Source of the DNA: a virus
Lineage: Duplodnaviria; Heunggongvirae; Uroviricota; Caudoviricetes
Strand: one strand, 5' to 3'
IMG/VR virus record: IMGVR_UViG_3300030379_000158
DNA length: 64,000 nucleotides
In this document: piece by piece, positions 563 through 33,348 of the stretch
How positions within the stretch are numbered: position 1 is the first letter of the stretch
Layout: each line of letters begins with the position of its first letter
Position numbers and translations under genes: made by a program
Notes under the pieces: generated by a model
Databases searched by the model: none
The model's input: the letters and a program-made list of their open reading frames with translations, nothing else
Told to the model about the DNA's origin: nothing

Positions 563-1675
563 ATGAAAAAAATTACAGTGGCACTTTCTACGGTTGCAGC
601 ATCTGTTCTGATGGCAATGTCTGCACAAGCGGCAGAAATCTATAACAAAGACGGTAACAAACTGGATCTGTACGGCAAAGTTAATGCAGAGCATTACTTC
701 TCTTCTTCGGCTAGTGATGACGGGGATAAAACTTATGCTCGTATGGGCTTCAAAGGTGAAACTCAGATTAATGACCAGTTAACCGGTTTTGGTCAGTGGG
801 AGTACGAATTTAAAGGTAACCGTTCTGAAACTGAAGGTTCTGATAAAGATAAAACTCGTCTTGCGTTTGCAGGGCTTCGCTTTGGCGATTATGGTTCGCT
901 CGACTATGGTCGCAACTACGGTGTAGCTTATGATGTTGGCGCTTGGACTGACGTGCTGCCGGAGTTTGGTGGAGATACCTGGACTCAGACTGATGTATTT
1001 ATGACCCAGCGTGCTACTGGCGTCGCGACCTATCGTAACAATAATTTCTTCGGCTTGGTTGATGGTCTGAACTTTGCTTTGCAGTATCAAGGTAAAAATG
1101 ATAGTGCTGCAAAAGTGAACAACTGGAAAGGCCGCGACGAAGTTGAATCTAATGGTGATGGCTTTGGTCTGTCAGCTACTTACGATTATGAAGGATTTGG
1201 CGTTGCTGCAACCTATGCAAAATCTGACCGTACTGATGGACAGGTATCCTATGCTAAAGCCAGCCCTCTGAATGCCTCTGGTAAAACTGCTGAAGTATGG
1301 GCTACGGGCCTGAAATATGATGCAAACAACATTTACCTGGCTACAACTTATTCTGAAACTCAGAATATGACAGTCTTCGGTGATGACCATATCGCGAACA
1401 AGGCGAAAAACTTTGAAGCCGTTGCTCAATACCAGTTTGATTTCGGCCTGCGTCCGTCCATCGCTTACCTACACTCTCGCGGTGAAAATATTGGTGCGTT
1501 CGGTAACCAGGATCTGGTTGAATACATCGACGTGGGCGCGACTTATTACTTTAACAAGAATATGTCCACTTTCGTTGACTATAAGATCAACCTGATCGAT
1601 GAAAGTGATTTTACCAAAAAATCTGGCGTTGCAACCGACAACATCGTTGCTGTTGGTATGACCTACCAATTCTAA
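563..1675 (+). CDS. General porin of the OmpC/OmpF/PhoE family (370 aa) with signal peptide
   Basis: N-terminal signal peptide ending [19 protein letters not shown], repeated aromatic/Gly beta-strand motifs, C-terminal ...VAVGMTYQF typical of enterobacterial trimeric porins. AT-rich flanks. Confidence 0.9.
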
Positions 1676-1830
1676 TTTTGGTAGGTAAGAATATGCGGGA
1701 AGGGAGTGATGTCACTGCCCGCATATAGGTGGCACCCTCATGCCACCTTTGAAGAGGCAATAAAATTGCCTCTTCTCAATTTAACTTCATGTTATTTATT
1801 ACCTTTTTATTAATTTGAAACTCTATTGTT

Positions 1831-1857
1831 GGGGCGCTTTGTTGCGCCCATTTTTTT
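1831..1857 (+). terminator. Rho-independent terminator after porin gene
   Basis: gggcgc-tttgtt-gcgccc followed by a T7 run. Further perfect hairpins at 1691-1726 and 1751-1775. Confidence 0.5.
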
Positions 1858-1908
1858 ACACCAATTAGGTAAAGTTATTTTTAAGTAATCGAGCAACTTT
1901 CAGCCCTC

Positions 1909-2397
1909 TCAAAATGGAATATCGTCTTCAAAGTCCATTGGAAGTTCGCTATTGGCGTTGCTCTGAGGTTTACCGCCACCGCTGTATTGCTGGTGGTTTT
2001 GAGGTTGGTTTGACTGCCCCCAGCCATTTGAGAATTGTGAATCGTCGCGGCGAGCGCCGATCATTTGCATGGTGCCGCCCTGGCTGACGATAATTTCCGT
2101 CGTGTAACGTTCTACACCGGCGTCATCTGTCCACTTACGGGTTTTAAGTTTCCCTTCGATGTAGACCTGAGAACCTTTTCGTAAATATTCACTCGCAATT
2201 TCAGCAATTTTTCCGAACAAAATGACTTTATGCCATTCTGTTTGCTCTTTCTGTTTGCCTGTTTGCTTGTCGCGCCATGATTCATTCGTTGCGATGCTGA
2301 GTCTTCCGACTGCTCCGCCATTTGGTATATACCTGATATCTGGGTCTTGTCCCAGGGTACCAATCAGGATGACTTTGTTTACACCGCGTTGTGCCAC
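1909..2397 (-). CDS. ssb: Single-stranded DNA-binding protein
   Basis: 162 aa, OB-fold N-terminus [23 protein letters not shown], Gly/Gln-rich linker, acidic tail ...MDFEDDIPF. Confidence 0.95.
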
Positions 2398-2416
2398 TTT
2401 TCTTATCCAACAAAAT

Positions 2417-2433
2417 AAATTAATTAGAGCAAT
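2417..2433 (-). promoter_or_regulatory. C1 repressor operator (16/17 match to ATTGCTCTAATAAATTT), upstream of ssb
   Basis: aaattaattagagcaat on + strand, reverse complement of the P1 C1 operator consensus. At ~21% of genome length from loxP, consistent with the P1 operator named Op21. Confidence 0.65.
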
Positions 2434-2566
2434 AATGTATATCTTTGAAACGTAGCTAACAAGTGATTTGCATTATCCTGTGCCTTCTAAAGGGATCGAG
2501 TCAGTCGGTATTGGCTGTGAATGGGTGTTTGTCCTGGAGCGTAAAAAATTCGCTTATGAGGTCTTT

Positions 2567-3124
2567 ATGAAGGGAAAAACAGCCGCAGGAGGCGGTGCAA
2601 TTTGCGCTATCGCGGTGATGATTACCATCGTGATGGGTAATGGCAATGTGCGAACCAACCAGGCGGGGCTTGAGCTTATCGGAAACGCTGAAGGTTGCCG
2701 ACGTGATCCATACATGTGCCCGGCAGGGGTATGGACTGACGGGATCGGTAATACACACGGGGTAACGCCGGGTGTGCGAAAAACAGACCAGCAAATCGCC
2801 GCTGATTGGGAAAAGAATATCCTGATCGTTGAACGCTGTATTAATCAGCACTTCCGGGGCAAAGACATGCCCGATAATGCCTTCAGTGCAATGACAAGCG
2901 CGGCATTCAATATGGGATGCAATAGCTTACGGACCTACTACAGCAAAGCGCGAGGCATGCGAGTAGAAACGTCCATCCACAAGTGGGCGCAGAAAGGGGA
3001 ATGGGTGAATATGTGTAACCATCTCCCTGATTTCGTGAACAGTAACGGCGTGCCCCTGCGAGGTTTAAAGATTCGCCGTGAAAAAGAACGCCAGCTTTGC
3101 CTGACGGGACTGGTCAATGAATAA
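2567..3124 (+). CDS. lyz: SAR endolysin (lysozyme), P1 Lyz-like, 185 aa
   Basis: MKGKTAAGGGAICAIAVMITIVMG signal-anchor-release segment followed by lysozyme core ELIGNAEGCRRDPY...GIGNTHG. The ORF-table start at 2468 is rejected; ATG at 2567 follows GAGG. Confidence 0.9.
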   Translation: MKGKTAAGGGAICAIAVMITIVMGNGNVRTNQAGLELIGNAEGCRRDPYMCPAGVWTDGIGNTHGVTPGVRKTDQQIAADWEKNILIVERCINQHFRGKDMPDNAFSAMTSAAFNMGCNSLRTYYSKARGMRVETSIHKWAQKGEWVNMCNHLPDFVNSNGVPLRGLKIRREKERQLCLTGLVNE

Positions 3125-3371
3125 GCTCCGGCAGCTCCGCCGACTTTCGACAATGAAGTTATCGCTGGCGGCGATAGTTTTCGACTCGATTTTCATGGCG
3201 GTATATGTGCTCAATGAGACGTGGCCACTGGAACCGCTATTGTATGCTGGGCTTCGGCTGTGCCTGACATTTTTGAGCATGGCTGCAAGATTGATGCAGC
3301 AGAAAGAAACCGCTTCAGATTGTCCACGCCGCGCGGTGCGCAAATATATGGCACGCAGGCGAAGGCGATAA
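3117..3371 (+). CDS. Putative holin-like small membrane protein
   Basis: Start overlaps lyz stop; two hydrophobic segments and a strongly basic C-terminus (RRAVRKYMARRRRR). Confidence 0.4.
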   Translation: MNKLRQLRRLSTMKLSLAAIVFDSIFMAVYVLNETWPLEPLLYAGLRLCLTFLSMAARLMQQKETASDCPRRAVRKYMARRRRR

Positions 3372-3381
3372 TAGTTAACGA

Positions 3382-3410
3382 GAACCCCGGCATCCGCCGG
3401 GGTTATTTTT
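3382..3410 (+). terminator. Rho-independent terminator
   Basis: aaccccgg-catc-ccggggtt followed by atttttgg. Confidence 0.5.
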
Positions 3411-3415
3411 GGTGG

Positions 3416-6146
<2,731 letters not shown>

Positions 6147-29909: not shown

Positions 29910-30110
29910 TTATCTGCTGCCCGGCATTCTCTGTTTAAGCACAGCCATTTCCTGACGGCATAACACAGCAATAGCGGTCCTGGCACCAATTTGCCTACCA
30001 ACCAGGTATTGCTTTACCTCGCGGCGACTCACGCCATCAAGAAGCATCTTTAACGCTTCACGGGACAACTTGTTGTATTTACGTGCCATTAATCTACTCC
30101 GCAGAACCAT
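29910..30110 (-). CDS. Hypothetical small protein (pdcB-like position)
   Basis: 66-aa ORF overlapping doc stop by 17 nt. Confidence 0.3.
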
Positions 30111-30474
30111 ACAATCTACGTAACGTGTCGGCGACAGAAGATACAGATATCTCGCCAGTCGCAGCGCCTACGGTAAGGTCTGCCAGTTCAGGTGAATCAA
30201 ATACCTGCACCCCGTTACGGCGTAGAAATAGCAGCGCACTGTTTAGCGCGGTACGCTTATTGGCATCATTGAATATATGCCCTCTCGCTGTAGCCACCAG
30301 GTAGGTGGCGGAGACTTCGAAAAGGTCGGTGATCTCTTCGTAGGCAACTCTGGCCTGAACTCTCCCGATAATGGCCTCTGCCCTACCCGGATCTGACATT
30401 CCCGGCAGGCCGCCGTAGCGGCTTATATTCGCATCATGAAGCGCAATAAGTTCTTCCGGTGATATATGCCTCAT
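30094..30474 (-). CDS. doc: Doc toxin (Fic-fold kinase) of the phd-doc addiction module
   Basis: 126 aa, [39 protein letters not shown]... Confidence 0.92.
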
Positions 30475-30695
30475 TATCGGTTAACCAGTTCCTTGTTGGT
30501 GGAGTCCAGAGTGTCAAACAGGGATGCAAATTCAGCATCCAGCGCCGCTTTTTTGTAGGCTTCGAAAGTAGCCTTGCTGACAATTACTGCTGGCTCACGG
30601 CCTCTGCGGGTGATTTCAACCTCTTCCCCGGCTTCAACATTGTTGAGCACTTCAGAAAGGTTGCCGCGCGCGGTACGGAAGTTAATGGATTGCAT
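30474..30695 (-). CDS. phd: Phd antitoxin
   Basis: 73 aa, [49 protein letters not shown]...; stop overlaps doc start. Confidence 0.92.
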
Positions 30696-30767
30696 AAACA
30701 CCTCGTGTACTCGTTATGTGTACACAATTATAAACTTCACAGGCATAAAGCACCAGCACTTTGCAGC

Positions 30768-31157
30768 TTAAATCACCGGACAATCATCAAACTCCCCACT
30801 TCGGGCATCATTGATGACATGAGTGATCACACCAAAAACAGCATTACTGCCCGTGCATCCATCGTCATCTACTGGTAACGCCTCTTTCTTCCCGGTGCTT
30901 AAATCCTCCAGGTGCTGGCGCGGATACTTCCTGTATCTCTTTATGCGATATTCACCCTCCATAGCGCACACAAGCAGAGAACCATCAACCGGAGTAAGCG
31001 AGGAATCAACCACCAGCAAAGCACCCTGCAATATTCCCTCACGGTGATGGCTATCAGCTGCCCGCATGAAGTAGGTTGCTGATGGATGCCTGATTAGTTG
31101 CTGATCAAGAGAAATTCGGCTTTCAACATAATCCGCCGCAGGAGAAGGGAAGCCCAT
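30768..31157 (-). CDS. humD: UmuD-like protein HumD
   Basis: 129 aa with S24 peptidase-like core; LexA box immediately upstream. Confidence 0.8.
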   Translation of the reverse strand: MGFPSPAADYVESRISLDQQLIRHPSATYFMRAADSHHREGILQGALLVVDSSLTPVDGSLLVCAMEGEYRIKRYRKYPRQHLEDLSTGKKEALPVDDDGCTGSNAVFGVITHVINDARSGEFDDCPVI

Positions 31158-31176
31158 AGCGTTTCCACCTCAATAA

Positions 31177-31196
31177 TACTGTTCATTTATACAGTA
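31177..31196. promoter_or_regulatory. LexA (SOS) box
   Basis: TACTGTTCATTTATACAGTA, perfect CTGT-N8-ACAG, 20 bp upstream of the humD start. Confidence 0.8.
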
Positions 31197-31508
31197 TACA
31201 TTAAAGAGACACCTTTGGTGCAAACGCGTTACGTACATCAACCACCGCTGATGATTTTGTGCGCTTTGCTACTATTCATCACCAACGGATCAGCGTAACC
31301 TCGTTGCCAATCAGTTAATAAGGAATTAGCTATGCCTAATCGCATTCCTCTCGATCCTGTATTGCCCAAAAATTTTGACTGCACTCCTAACGAGAAACGC
31401 TTTAAAGCTCAGCTGGACGCCTAGTGGGACCATCCATATGGGGTTACACAACCTGACGGGAAAATTGTAGTTTATTGTCTGAATGGTGGGGCGTGGGACC
31501 GTCCATCC

Positions 31509-31916
31509 GTGCTTTGTTTGGCAGATAACTATGATGAAGCCTGTGAACTTGCCGAAAGACAGCAGGCAAGCTGGGTAAAAACACGGTCTGAACCGACATT
31601 CATGTTTTCAAAAGAACCGCCATTTATACTGGCGAGGATGTCGCAGCGACCGGATCATCAACAAGAAATTGTTGCTGAATTTTCCTCAAGGGATGAGATG
31701 AATCTCTTCTCATTAAAGCAGGAAGAAAGGGATCGCGTCGAAGTGTCTCCAACTCTCGACCACAACCGGATGAACCTGGCCCAGCTCGCCTGGTACAGCA
31801 AAGAATTAGAGATGTCTATTGCCCGGCTTGAAAACGAAAAAGCCGCTATCCAAGTCCAGCACGAAGTAGTTCTGAACCGGATTAGAGAAATGCAAAACGA
31901 TAACAGGGGATTTTGA
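31509..31916 (+). CDS. Hypothetical protein (135 aa, GTG start; alternative ATG further in)
   Basis: ORF divergent from humD; coiled-coil-like C-terminus; stop abuts start of next gene. Confidence 0.45.
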   Translation: MLCLADNYDEACELAERQQASWVKTRSEPTFMFSKEPPFILARMSQRPDHQQEIVAEFSSRDEMNLFSLKQEERDRVEVSPTLDHNRMNLAQLAWYSKELEMSIARLENEKAAIQVQHEVVLNRIREMQNDNRGF

Positions 31917-32273
31917 ATGGCTAAAATCGAGTACCATCGCGATCGCAGTAATTACCTGGAAATATACGATCATGAATCTCTTAACGATATCAACGATGCG
32001 TTATATGAATACTGTGAAAAAACGAGCATCACAGATGCACCTGATGCATTTGTCGAGCTGCCGGTATATCTCCGCGACATCTATGCAATACGAACACCGC
32101 CCGTATCGGTGATTCACATTGGCTATGTCCGCCTGTCCATCGAAGAAGATGAAGATCGTTATATCGTGCGCCACTATACATTGGACAGAAAAGAACTTCC
32201 TAATGAATGGAACATGAGTAATTTCTACAACGGTGAATATGGCTTAAAATCCGCTAATAATTTACGGTCATAA
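31917..32273 (+). CDS. Hypothetical protein (118 aa)
   Basis: AT-rich ORF coupled to the upstream ORF (TGA then ATG). Confidence 0.45.
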   Translation: MAKIEYHRDRSNYLEIYDHESLNDINDALYEYCEKTSITDAPDAFVELPVYLRDIYAIRTPPVSVIHIGYVRLSIEEDEDRYIVRHYTLDRKELPNEWNMSNFYNGEYGLKSANNLRS

Positions 32274-33135
32274 TCTATACAGGCATGTATAACAACAACG
32301 AGCCTATTAGCTGTCAACAACGTTATTTCCTCAAATAAGAAAAAGCAGAAAACAAATTGTTTAAGGTCACAAATTGTGGCCTTGATGGAGGAGGGAGGCT
32401 TATTGGCTATGGCTAAAAATCAAATTAGACACTTCATGTTGCTGTAGCTCATCAAGATCCGAGGCCACAAAACCTTTTCCGAAAAACTTCACAAGTAACT
32501 CACTAGCCGCATCATTGTCACCTATTACACGAAAGTCATACGGCAACGTCGCAAGTTGACGATGTAATCCTGCTGAGAAAGTCGAATCTAACAGCGCCCA
32601 GAATTCCCACCGCAGGATAATACTCGCCTCTTAATACTGTATATATGTTGTTACGATATGTTTTTCTGTCTCTAAAAAAAGATGTTAATAGAATGCTAAC
32701 CATTGAAGGGGATAAAAATATACAATTCCAACAAACGTTATTTTTAACAATTTTTTTCTTTGCGTTGACTTTCCCGGACACCTTGTCTGACCGAAGGTGC
32801 GCGAAAGCCACTTTTTCCTTCCTGAGTTATCCACAAAGTTATGCACTTGCAAGAGGGCCATTTTCTACATATTGTGGTGGCTAACAGATGAAATGAATGT
32901 AGATTAATTGAAGATAAGGAGAAAATTTGAGATGCAATCATGACGTTAATAGATAGGGTCTGCATTACAGACCCCACCCGCATCAAGGAATTAGCCGTTC
33001 CCTGATGTTTTTCCGAAAACATGTGCCGTAAGCTCACGTTAACGACTTTCATTCACCGAATCCAACTATATAGGGGTTGGGTTTCTACGTCAACGTGAGC
33101 AAGTGCACCTTTACATTTGACAAGGAACCACCTGA

Positions 33136-33273
33136 ATGAACGCTTTTTTTCAGTTCCTGAGTGCATTTTTAGATGCGCCTATTATTAGCCAGATTCTGGC
33201 TATTATCCTCATCATCGTTTTGATTTTGCTTTTAAGGTCAGTAAAAAATGGAATTATGCACTGGCTTACTTAA
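33136..33273 (+). CDS. Small hydrophobic peptide (45 aa), candidate membrane toxin-like ORF
   Basis: MNAFFQFLSAFLDAPIISQILAIILIIVLILLLRSVKNGIMHWLT; AAGGA upstream; flanked by long inverted repeats in an ORF-poor AT-rich gap. Confidence 0.3.
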   Translation: MNAFFQFLSAFLDAPIISQILAIILIIVLILLLRSVKNGIMHWLT

Positions 33274-33348
33274 TGTTTCAGTGAAACATTAAAATCTCCT
33301 TGATGTGGAAACAATCATTTTCTGTATGTGCTGGTGGGCACCTGTAGT

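What the first reader, a model, noticed from the sequence alone, without database searches (positions are those of the whole stretch)
32274..33348. AT-rich ORF-poor gap with a 45-aa hydrophobic peptide and long inverted repeats
About 1.1 kb without a convincing long ORF. It contains a Shine-Dalgarno-preceded ORF for a 45-aa transmembrane-like peptide (33136-33273), an upstream ~13-bp inverted repeat with a ~45-nt loop (gctcacgttaacg ... cgtcaacgtgagc, ~33040-33100), a hairpin ggtctg-cattac-agacc (~32956), and a downstream palindrome tgtttcag-tgaaaca. The layout resembles type I toxin loci (small membrane toxin plus structured leader or antisense RNA).
Basis: seen in the sequence. Interest (0 to 1): 0.5.

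Follow-up and report, generated by a model that had tools for sequence, protein, structure and literature searches.

The report
Candidate antisense-controlled small membrane peptide, phage P1
In a P1/P7-type phage-plasmid, a stretch annotated only with doubtful small genes holds a conserved unit that looks like an RNA-controlled small-toxin locus but is untested: a promoter copied from the host nrdA gene, a long folded leader, a 45-residue membrane peptide gene, and a likely antisense RNA gene inside the leader.

Summary
The ORF, the Shine-Dalgarno sequence, the 13-bp inverted repeat, the GGGTCTG hairpin and the palindrome are all present, with small coordinate corrections.

The window is a P1/P7-type phage-plasmid, and the gap has two unrelated halves. 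The left half is a 5'-truncated gene remnant (32403-32600, - strand) followed by AT-rich junction DNA. The right half (about 32735-33339) is a self-contained module kept in all three sequence clades of P1-like elements, while the genes on both sides differ.

The module has four parts:
- a copy of the E. coli nrdA promoter with two DnaA boxes, firing rightward;
- a leader of about 250 nt whose core (32914-33100) is better conserved than the ORF;
- the 45-aa single-helix peptide ORF, intact in 83 of 83 full-length loci;
- inside the leader, an invariant leftward promoter (TTGACG-17-TATAGT) in front of about 112 nt that fold far better on the - strand, in two clades.

The - strand genes annotated in P1/P7 (upfM, upfN/upf91.4) are broken in the diverged clade.

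The layout matches 5'-overlapping type I toxin-antitoxin loci such as hok/sok and ldr/rdl. However, the peptide and RNAs match no known family, covariation is thin (one compensatory pair), and neither strand-specific transcription nor toxicity has been shown. Verdict: plausible, unproven, moderately interesting.

The parts
32403..32600 (-). 5'-truncated gene remnant. It encodes the last 66 of 174 residues of a protein that is intact in phage PhiR41_1. It is not part of the module; it accounts for 32403-32600 of the left, ORF-poor half, and the rest of that half (32274-32402 and 32601-32734) is AT-rich junction DNA that was not characterised.
   Evidence: tblastn gives 88% identity over residues 109-174, E 1e-36. 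The intact gene is seen. In P7, IS903 is inserted at about 32537.
32735..32868 (+). Copy of the E. coli nrdA upstream region and promoter. DnaA boxes TTATCCACA (32827-32835) and TTATGCACT (32839-32847); -35 TTGCAA (32847-32852). The -10 TATTGT (32870-32875) and the inferred start at about 32883 lie just past the end of the homology.
   Evidence: 98.7% identical over 76 nt to the ypaB/nrdA intergenic DNA; all 5426 E. coli genomes hold a match, and the listed chromosomal matches lie there. GenBank M95666 annotates an 'nrdA-like promoter' and a dnaA box on this strand in P1. The boxes and the -35 are invariant in all three clades although their flanks diverge. The start site is inferred by analogy with nrdA and was not measured.
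32915..33005 (+). Upstream translation signals in the leader: strong Shine-Dalgarno sequence TAAGGAG (32915-32921), a mini-ORF ATG at 32932 (M-Q-S-stop; ATG-TAA in the diverged clade), and a 21-codon upstream ORF at 32940-33005 that starts in an ATGA overlap.
   Evidence: Only 2 of 32 positions differ across 32914-32945 between clades. The upstream ORF stays open in all 15 variants, but 6 of its 21 residues change against one synonymous change, so it shows no protein-level constraint.
32946..33057 (-). Predicted antisense RNA of about 112 nt with three stem-loops: SL1 33045-33013, SL2 33007-32981, SL3 32979-32951. It is fully complementary to the mRNA leader. Its 3' end is uncertain: SL3 followed by UAUCUAUU is not a canonical terminator.
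   Evidence: MFE -43.2 kcal/mol, z -5.5, against -29.1, z -2.5 for the sense strand. In the diverged clade the values are -38.3 (z -3.8) against -24.5 (z -2.2). One compensatory U-A to C-G pair in SL3, two G.U to A-U changes, and three substitutions in the SL2 loop with none in its nine inner pairs. No Rfam match. No strand-specific transcript data.
33065..33093 (-). Leftward sigma-70-type promoter: -35 TTGACG (33093-33088), 17-nt spacer, -10 TATAGT (33070-33065). The inferred start is at about 33057. It corresponds to 'PupfN' in the P1 record.
   Evidence: 10/12 match to the consensus. Predicted independently in NC_005856. Hexamers and spacing are intact in all 83 full-length loci, and the only substitutions fall in the spacer. 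Not significant as a motif match alone.
33023..33108 (+). Arms 33032-33044 / 33088-33100; inner stem 33058-33067 / 33075-33084 with three G.U pairs on the + strand. The antisense promoter sits in its upper part.
   Evidence: z -3.1. The outer pair changes from C-G to U.G in the diverged clade, which is compatible with + strand RNA. There is no two-sided covariation.
33122..33273 (+). Shine-Dalgarno sequence AAGGA (33122-33126) and the 45-codon ORF (33136-33273). The product has one predicted transmembrane helix (about residues 15-33) and a short polar tail.
   Evidence: Intact in 83 of 83 full-length loci. There are 33 substitutions and no indel against the diverged clade, while the equally diverged flanks carry 4-5 indel events. 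dN/dS is 0.41. The Shine-Dalgarno core, start codon and stop codon are kept. Mean hydropathy of the core is 3.1 and 2.6 in the two clades. Annotated only in phage SJ46, as a hypothetical protein.
33270..33292 (.). AT-rich perfect palindrome overlapping the stop codon. Poorly conserved, so probably not a functional part.
   Evidence: divergence and a 1-nt deletion variant are seen. It has too few G-C pairs and no T-run for an intrinsic terminator.

Best explanation
The right half of the interval (about 32735-33339) is an autonomous sense/antisense module of the P1 family. It works like a 5'-overlapping type I toxin-antitoxin locus.

Proposed mechanism:
1. A host-derived nrdA-type promoter with two DnaA boxes transcribes rightward from about 32883 (inferred). 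This mRNA has a leader of about 250 nt and encodes a 45-aa single-helix membrane peptide.
2. Facing it from inside the leader, a constitutive sigma-70 promoter transcribes leftward from about 33057 (inferred). Its product is a three-hairpin RNA of about 110 nt, perfectly complementary to leader positions about +63 to +175.
3. That stretch covers most of the strongly initiated upstream ORF.
4. Pairing would block upstream translation and/or trigger cleavage of the duplex, and so keep the peptide off.
5. If the antisense RNA falls, or the nrdA-type promoter is up-regulated (low DnaA-ATP or replication stress, by analogy with nrdAB), the peptide is made and inserts into the inner membrane.

Shown here: the conservation pattern, ORF integrity, promoter homology, strand-asymmetric folding, and autonomy of the module.
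Inferred: both transcripts, their ends, translation of the ORF, the coupling mechanism, and toxicity.
For: 1. Autonomy. The same block is flanked on its right side by pmgV in P1/P7 and by a type IC hsdMSR operon in the diverged clade. On its left side it is flanked by hot in P1 and the diverged clade, and by a gene remnant plus upf93.6 in P7-type elements.
2. ORF. It has the same length in 15 sequence variants and 83 loci, with no indel despite 24% divergence. dN/dS is 0.41. The Shine-Dalgarno core and the start codon are kept inside a 35-nt stretch that is 38% diverged.
3. Competing - strand ORFs. upfM and upfN/upf91.4 carry stops or frameshifts in the diverged clade.
4. Leader. The core 32914-33100 is 5-12% diverged, against 24-38% for the ORF and both flanks. 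No reading frame explains this, so the constraint is on RNA or DNA.
5. Rightward promoter. It is a copy of a characterised host promoter, and the DnaA boxes and -35 are invariant.
6. Leftward promoter. A 10/12 match with a 17-nt spacer, invariant, with variation only in the spacer.
7. Antisense RNA. The RNA downstream of that promoter folds with z -5.5 / -3.8 on the - strand against -2.5 / -2.2 on the + strand, in two clades. It has one compensatory pair, and its loop changes while its stem does not.
8. Disruption tolerated. Independent IS insertions and frameshifts that truncate the peptide occur in nature, so loss of the ORF is tolerated, as expected for an accessory or toxic gene.
Against: - There is no strand-specific transcript evidence. 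The only RNA-seq found is unstranded and from lytic infection.
- Covariation is not significant: 88 of 500 shuffles reach the observed score. Only three clades exist.
- With 33 random substitutions the ORF stays open in 30% of simulations, and the number of amino-acid changes (19) equals the random expectation.
- The T-rich strand makes hydrophobic ORFs easy to obtain by chance.
- The promoter match alone is not significant.
- The antisense RNA has no canonical terminator.
- The upstream ORF ends 130 nt before the peptide start and no conserved coupling ORF exists, so the link between the antisense target and peptide translation is unexplained.
- Shine-Dalgarno sequestration is not conserved.
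- The RNA has no extra complementarity to the peptide's initiation region.
- From my own recollection of Lehnherr et al. 1993, not checked here: killing of cells that lose P1 is abolished by doc mutations, so a second strong post-segregational killer is not expected.
Confidence: 0.4

Rival explanations
1. It is a lysogeny-expressed 'moron'. An ordinary, non-toxic small membrane protein gene is driven by the captured nrdA-type promoter, with a long structured 5' UTR. The leftward promoter is either silent or serves leftward genes (hot in P1) rather than acting as an antitoxin. The peptide would modulate a host membrane protein or exclude other phages.
For: The unit has a promoter-gene layout with lower G+C than its surroundings and sits in a known hypervariable accessory region of P1-like elements. 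In P1 and the diverged clade, hot lies downstream of the leftward promoter on the same strand. Knock-down of upfN and upfO by CRISPRi left P1 lytic growth unimpaired; upfM could not be tested there and is listed as non-essential only from an earlier deletion survey. All three lie in this block. No toxin family matches the peptide.
Against: P7-type elements keep the leader block unchanged even though no intact gene follows the leftward promoter. The strong strand asymmetry of folding and the extreme conservation of a non-coding leader are not needed for a simple moron.
Confidence: 0.3
2. The functional element is only the conserved non-coding block (32914-33100). It would be a - strand small RNA with targets elsewhere, or a leader/attenuator for leftward transcription. 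The 45-codon ORF would be an untranslated by-product of a T-rich strand.
For: The block is much better conserved than the ORF. The statistical evidence for coding is weak. Truncated ORF variants exist. The - strand fold is the strongest single signal.
Against: The ORF has no indel and keeps its start, stop and Shine-Dalgarno core while its flanks accumulate 4-5 indels. It is intact in 83 of 83 loci. The rightward promoter with invariant DnaA boxes points at it.
Confidence: 0.15
3. There is no function. The interval would be recombinational scar tissue between mosaic modules (gene remnant, captured host DNA, IS target), and the low divergence of the core would reflect recent exchange between clades rather than selection.
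For: The left half is demonstrably a remnant. The region is a hot spot for IS903 and IS1 insertion and lies in a hypervariable region. P7-type DNA is 98.7% identical to the host nrdA promoter while P1 is about 94% (per the P1 record's note), which points to recent exchange with the chromosome.
Against: The edges of the conserved block coincide with sequence signals: the Shine-Dalgarno sequence on the left and the end of the hairpin and promoter on the right. The block is kept in three different genomic contexts. Folding z-scores are far below shuffles on one strand in two clades.
Confidence: 0.1

Closest known systems
hok/sok (plasmid R1 parB) and its relatives
   Same: A small membrane peptide gene sits behind a long structured leader. 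An antisense promoter lies inside the leader and faces the mRNA promoter. The antisense RNA covers an upstream translated ORF rather than the toxin start. A YUNR-type tetranucleotide (UUAG / UUCA) is present in the target loop of SL2 in both clades (read; this has a high chance expectation).
   Different: The peptide has no sequence similarity to Hok/Gef and Rfam finds no match for the RNAs. The upstream ORF does not overlap the peptide ORF as mok does; it ends 130 nt before it. No conserved 5'-3' fold-back was found. The antisense RNA would be about 110 nt with three hairpins, against 64 nt for Sok.
ldr/rdl and other 5'-overlapping chromosomal type I loci of E. coli
   Same: A cis-encoded RNA overlaps the 5' UTR well upstream of a short hydrophobic ORF. 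The taxonomic range is narrow: here only Escherichia, Salmonella and Shigella P1-like elements.
   Different: No homology. The locus is single-copy, with no tandem paralogues. It is carried on a phage-plasmid.
tisB/istR-1
   Same: The antisense target lies about 80-190 nt upstream of the toxin start, so control would have to act at a distance (standby site or upstream translation). Toxin transcription is tied to a DNA-metabolism signal.
   Different: IstR-1 is encoded divergently, does not overlap its target gene and pairs over about 21 nt; here the overlap is perfect over about 112 nt. The signal would be a DnaA/nrdA-type promoter, not LexA.
E. coli nrdAB promoter
   Same: About 130 nt of upstream sequence, both DnaA boxes and the -35 hexamer are shared.
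   Different: Homology ends in the spacer. The -10 is TATTGT instead of TATCTT. The nrdA leader is replaced by phage sequence. I could not see the downstream NrdR box region in the alignment; NrdR boxes were judged from memory only.
P1 c4 antisense RNA (immI)
   Same: This is another antisense regulator in the same phage family. It shows that P1 uses RNA control (background cited in the paper read).
   Different: It is a different locus and sequence, is processed from an operon transcript, and targets ant/icd translation.

Membership tests
Type I toxin-antitoxin system (generic definition) | Short (under about 60 aa) hydrophobic protein with a predicted transmembrane helix | tested here: met
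   45 aa. Hydropathy of residues 15-33 is 3.1 (2.6 in the diverged clade). The ORF is conserved.
Type I toxin-antitoxin system (generic definition) | The protein is toxic when expressed | not testable with these tools
   This needs induced expression. Natural truncations are compatible with toxicity but not diagnostic.
Type I toxin-antitoxin system (generic definition) | An antisense RNA gene overlapping or adjacent to the toxin gene is transcribed | tested here: inconclusive
   There is an invariant 10/12 promoter and a strand-asymmetric, conserved fold downstream of it. However, the motif alone is not significant, there is no canonical terminator, and no stranded RNA data exist.
Type I toxin-antitoxin system (generic definition) | The antitoxin RNA base-pairs with the toxin mRNA and blocks its translation or stability | tested here: inconclusive
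   If both transcripts exist, complementarity is perfect over 32946-33057 by construction. The link to translation of the ORF 79 nt further on is not explained.
Hok/Gef - Sok | Protein matches the Hok/Gef family; the RNA matches sok; a mok-type ORF overlaps the toxin ORF | tested here: not met
   No Pfam hit to any toxin family at E up to 10. No Rfam hit at E up to 1. The upstream ORF ends at 33005, 130 nt before the peptide start.
Ldr/Rdl, TisB/IstR, Ibs/Sib, ShoB/OhsC, Zor/Orz, DinQ/AgrB | Sequence membership of the peptide or RNA in the family model | tested here: not met
   The Pfam, NCBIfam and PHROG scans of the peptide gave only sub-threshold matches to unrelated families. Rfam returned nothing for the 6 kb around the locus.
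nrdA-type DnaA-box promoter | Homology to the E. coli nrdA promoter, including both DnaA boxes and the -35 | tested here: met
   98.7% over 76 nt and about 95% over 130 nt. The same annotation appears in M95666. Regulation by DnaA was not tested.
P1/P7 annotated genes upfM, upfN (upf91.3, upf91.4) as protein-coding genes | The reading frame is preserved among relatives | tested here: not met
   Internal stops and frameshifts occur in all five variants of the diverged clade. One P7-type variant has a stop in upf91.4.
Anti-phage defence systems (PADLOC) | Match of the peptide or its neighbours to a defence-protein model | tested here: not met
   Nothing at E up to 0.1 for the peptide, upf93.6 or pmgV.

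The most novel reading that the evidence does not exclude
P1-family phage-plasmids carry a previously unrecognised type I toxin-antitoxin system with a new toxin family. Its toxin promoter would be a captured host nrdA/DnaA-box promoter, so that synthesis of a membrane toxin is wired to the host's replication-initiation or dNTP status and held in check by a three-hairpin antisense RNA. On this reading, three genes of the reference P1 annotation (upfM/N/O) are artefacts lying on top of it.
Probability: 0.25. Interest if true: 0.65.

Novelty: new member of a known kind. Interest (0 to 1): 0.5.

Why it matters
P1 is a reference phage and a prototype phage-plasmid. P1-like elements are common carriers of resistance genes in E. 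coli and Salmonella.

If the module is real, three things follow:
- The reference annotation of this interval is wrong: upfM, upfN and upfO should be replaced by a + strand peptide gene and a - strand RNA gene.
- P1 would have a second, RNA-controlled toxin-like module next to phd/doc.
- It would be, as far as I know, the first type I-like locus whose toxin promoter is a captured DnaA-box promoter of a host replication gene. That suggests a link between host replication state and prophage behaviour.

The module sits among other DNA-stress genes (humD, lxr, hot). It also lies directly upstream of type IC restriction operons in one clade, which may matter for how those cassettes move.

Tried and rejected
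- Known RNA families: Rfam at E up to 1 over 30000-36000 returned nothing.
- Known protein families for the peptide: Pfam, PHROGs, NCBIfam and PADLOC gave only sub-threshold noise.
- Wider homologues of the peptide: the 5.8-billion-protein search and the 1.84-billion-representative HMMER search returned only truncated or frameshifted versions of the same three clades.
- More distant loci for covariation: GTDB species representatives scanned by peptide pattern and by inverted-repeat pattern gave only chance hits. IMG/VR and metagenome scans gave the same three clades. Distant blastn against phages and plasmids gave nothing below about 77% identity.
- Conserved sequestration of the peptide's Shine-Dalgarno sequence: seen in the window's MFE fold, but absent from the consensus fold and from pairing probabilities. 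Dropped.
- hok-like 5'-3' fold-back between TAAGGAG and the TCTCCTT downstream of the ORF: seen, but the 3' partner is not conserved. Dropped.
- A coupling ORF ending at the peptide start (stop codons abut the ATG in all clades): no conserved start or frame. Dropped.
- Trans pairing of the antisense RNA with the peptide's initiation region: no better than shuffles.
- Paralogues in the window: none.
- The palindrome 33270-33292 as a terminator: no T-run, two G-C pairs, not conserved.
- Literature: nothing on this locus beyond gene lists. The P1 genome paper is not held.
- P1vir RNA-seq table: unstranded log fold changes (pmgV 8.4, upfN 4.9, upfO 1.5, hot 6.3 at 10 min). These fit a transcript boundary inside the module but cannot assign a strand.
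Full report
**Context.** The window is a P1/P7-type phage-plasmid (Punavirus). The interval 32200-33400 is 99.8% identical to phages P7 and SJ46, and its right half (32797-33400) is 96% identical to P1. The window's + strand is the reverse of P1 coordinates. The finding lies between the upf93.6 homologue (31917-32273, +) and pmgV (33349-33711, -). It sits a little over 1.5 kb from humD and phd/doc. In P1, all annotated features of this stretch are on the window's - strand: upfM, upfN, upfO, three predicted promoters and 'two predicted DnaA boxes'. P7 annotates Upf91.3/91.4/91.6/91.7 and carries an IS903 at about window 32537. Only the SJ46 record calls the + strand 45-codon ORF, as a hypothetical protein.

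**Observation.** The details and corrected coordinates are in the observation check. The region is AT-rich. It folds better than shuffled sequence on both strands.

**The left half is not part of the story.** Positions 32403-32600 (- strand) encode the last 66 residues (88% identity) of a 174-aa protein that is intact in phage PhiR41_1. This is a 5'-truncated remnant. From 32735 to 32868 the sequence is a copy of the DNA upstream of E. coli nrdA. It is 98.7% identical over 76 nt; all 5426 E. coli genomes hold a match, and the listed chromosomal matches lie at the ypaB/nrdA intergenic DNA. It remains alignable over about 130 nt. The copy includes:
- both DnaA boxes (32827-32835 and 32839-32847);
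- the -35 TTGCAA (32847-32852).

After a 17-nt spacer comes a -10-like TATTGT (32870-32875), and by analogy with nrdA transcription would start near 32883. The 1993 GenBank entry M95666 already labelled this an 'nrdA-like promoter' on this strand. The boxes and the -35 are invariant in all clades although the surrounding bases diverge.

**Comparative material.** Searches of phage, plasmid, E. coli, IMG/VR, metagenome and GTDB collections found this DNA only in P1-like elements of Escherichia, Salmonella and Shigella. It falls into three clades: P7-type, P1-type (about 96%) and a clade about 77% identical. In the third clade the block lies directly upstream of a type IC hsdM-hsdS-hsdR operon instead of pmgV. 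On the other side, the neighbour is hot in P1 and the 77% clade, and a gene remnant in P7-type elements. The block (about 32824-33339) is therefore the constant unit and its neighbours are variable. This argues that it is an autonomous module.

**What is conserved.** Divergence between the window and the 77% clade, by segment:

| Segment | Divergence | Indels |
|---|---|---|
| 32877-32913 | 24% | an 18-nt indel |
| 32914-32945 | 6% | none |
| 32946-33057 | 12% | 1 gap position |
| 33058-33100 | 5% | none |
| 33101-33135 | 38% | 1 gap position |
| ORF 33136-33273 | 24% | none |
| 33274-33348 | 29% | 6 gap positions |

The best-conserved part is therefore non-coding. The 21-codon upstream ORF in it changes 6 of 21 residues against one synonymous change. 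The - strand frames (upfM, upfN/upf91.4) are interrupted by stops and frameshifts in the 77% clade. I conclude that upfM and upfN are not genes. upfO was not examined separately.

**The peptide ORF.**
- It is intact, 45 codons long, in all 15 sequence variants and all 83 full-length loci collected.
- The 77% clade encodes MIVFFQFLSAFLNAPVLSQVLAIVFIVVLIWFFKSVINRGVRWLI, which is 58% identical. Changes are mostly I/V/L/F or R/K, and the N-terminal FFQFLSAFL-AP motif is kept.
- dN/dS is 0.41.
- The Shine-Dalgarno core, start codon and stop codon are retained in otherwise poorly conserved surroundings.

The support is only moderate. With the same 33 substitutions placed at random, the frame stays open in 30% of trials and the number of amino-acid changes is as expected by chance. 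The absence of indels is more telling. I estimate about 4 indel events would be expected from the rate in the equally diverged flanks, giving a Poisson P of about 0.015. This is a rough calculation of mine. Variants truncated by frameshift or by IS1 insertion exist, so loss of the ORF is tolerated. I identified the inserted element as IS1 from memory of its terminal sequence.

**The antisense candidate.** A leftward promoter, TTGACG-17-TATAGT (33093-33065), is the best sigma-70 match in the region. It was also predicted independently in the P1 record as PupfN. It is invariant in 83 loci, and the only substitutions fall in its spacer. As a motif match it is not significant by itself.

The 112 nt downstream of it (33057 to 32946, - strand) fold into three stem-loops with MFE -43.2 kcal/mol and z -5.5. 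The complementary + strand reaches only -29.1, z -2.5. In the 77% clade the same asymmetry holds (-38.3, z -3.8 against -24.5, z -2.2), because several pairs are G.U on the - strand and would be A.C on the + strand. Between clades:
- SL3 shows one compensatory U-A to C-G exchange and two G.U to A-U changes;
- SL2 has three substitutions in its 7-nt loop and none in its nine inner pairs;
- four cells break a pair.

The formal covariation test is not significant: 88 of 500 shuffles reach the observed score, and only five distinct rows are available. SL3 followed by UAUCUAUU is not a canonical terminator, so the 3' end is uncertain.

This forms a + strand hairpin (33032-33100). Its inner stem has three G.U pairs, and its outer pair changes from C-G to U.G in the 77% clade. 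The antisense promoter sits in its upper half.

**Mechanism.** Two promoters face each other 175 nt apart, so their transcripts would overlap at their 5' ends. This is the arrangement of hok/sok and ldr/rdl. The antisense RNA would cover most of the upstream ORF, whose initiation region (TAAGGAG, then ATG at 32932 and ATG at 32940 in an ATGA overlap) is almost invariant. I therefore propose that the RNA blocks upstream translation or directs duplex cleavage, and that this keeps the peptide off.

The step from the upstream ORF to the peptide start 130 nt downstream is not explained by anything I could find:
- Shine-Dalgarno sequestration is not conserved;
- no coupling ORF is conserved;
- the RNA has no special complementarity to the peptide's initiation region.

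The nrdA-type promoter suggests that the sense transcript responds to DnaA status or replication stress. That would fit the neighbouring LexA-controlled humD/lxr and the theta-subunit homologue hot. This last point is inference from what is known of nrdAB.

**Experimental data.**
- A CRISPRi screen found upfN and upfO dispensable for lytic growth. upfM could not be targeted there and is listed as non-essential only from an earlier deletion survey.
- An unstranded RNA-seq table of P1vir infection gives log fold changes of 8.4 (pmgV), 4.9 (upfN), 1.5 (upfO) and 6.3 (hot) at 10 min. This is compatible with a transcript boundary between about 32861 and 32946 but cannot assign a strand.
- No paper held in the library describes an RNA or toxin at this locus.

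**Comparison with known systems.** In layout the module works like a 5'-overlapping type I toxin-antitoxin locus. It is not a member of any described family:
- Pfam, NCBIfam, PHROGs and PADLOC give no match for the peptide;
- Rfam gives none for the RNAs;
- there is no mok-like overlapping frame.

The generic defining features that matter most (toxicity, existence of the antisense transcript, repression by it) could not be tested here. I therefore file it as a candidate new member of the type I kind, not as a member of a named family.

**Verdict.** Best explanation: an antisense-controlled small membrane peptide (toxin-like) module, confidence about 0.4. The main rival is a non-toxic moron-type small membrane protein gene (0.3). 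Interest is moderate (0.5). It bears on a classic phage, it implies a correction to the reference annotation, and it has an unusual host-derived DnaA-box promoter. The evidence remains circumstantial, and the family is narrow and shallow.

Noticed in passing
window 31332-31916 (+), stop at 31422-31424: The homologue of P7 upf94.2 carries a premature stop here (W31 to stop) compared with the intact 194-aa P7 protein. In this element the gene is therefore probably a pseudogene or restarts at GTG 31509.
   Followed up: partly
window 32735-32868 compared with P1 (L001 about 2440-2570): The P7-type copy of the nrdA upstream region is 98.7% identical to the E. coli chromosome. The P1 record's own annotation gives about 94% over 56 nt for P1, and the third clade is more diverged still. 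This suggests repeated recombination or gene conversion between the phage-plasmid and the host nrdA promoter.
   Followed up: partly
L003, L076, L077, L078, L081 (about 1460-4760) and L072 (1-969): Several P1-like elements of the 77% clade carry host-type genes next to humD: metG and apbC/mrp in the five loci of that clade, and an Mrp-like gene (cut at the locus edge) in phage PhiR41_1. This points to capture of a chromosomal segment. One such contig is 5.7 Mb long, so it is either an integrated copy or an assembly join.
   Followed up: no
L074-L081, 6677-12138: In the 77% clade a complete type IC (EcoR124-like) hsdM-hsdS-hsdR operon starts about 540 nt downstream of the 45-codon ORF, on the same strand, in place of pmgTUV. 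Whether transcription from the nrdA-type promoter reads into hsdM was not examined.
   Followed up: no
L100 1617-1690; proteins P0002 and P0003; P7 (L002 1838-2894): There are independent IS insertions in this short AT-rich stretch. IS1 interrupts the 3' end of the peptide ORF in two clades at different codons (C-terminal ...VMTPTY). Another, unidentified sequence change truncates P0002 after residue 31. IS903 lies in the gene remnant in P7.
   Followed up: partly
window 51005-51080 and 52512-52665 (-): Three tRNA genes (Met-CAT, Thr-TGT, Asn-GTT) are present, as expected for a P1-type genome.
   Followed up: no
window 30094-30701 (-) and 30768-31157 (-): Intact doc and phd (a type II addiction module) and humD lie a little over 1.5 kb to the left of the module. 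P7 annotates a LexA box between humD and upf94.2.
   Followed up: no
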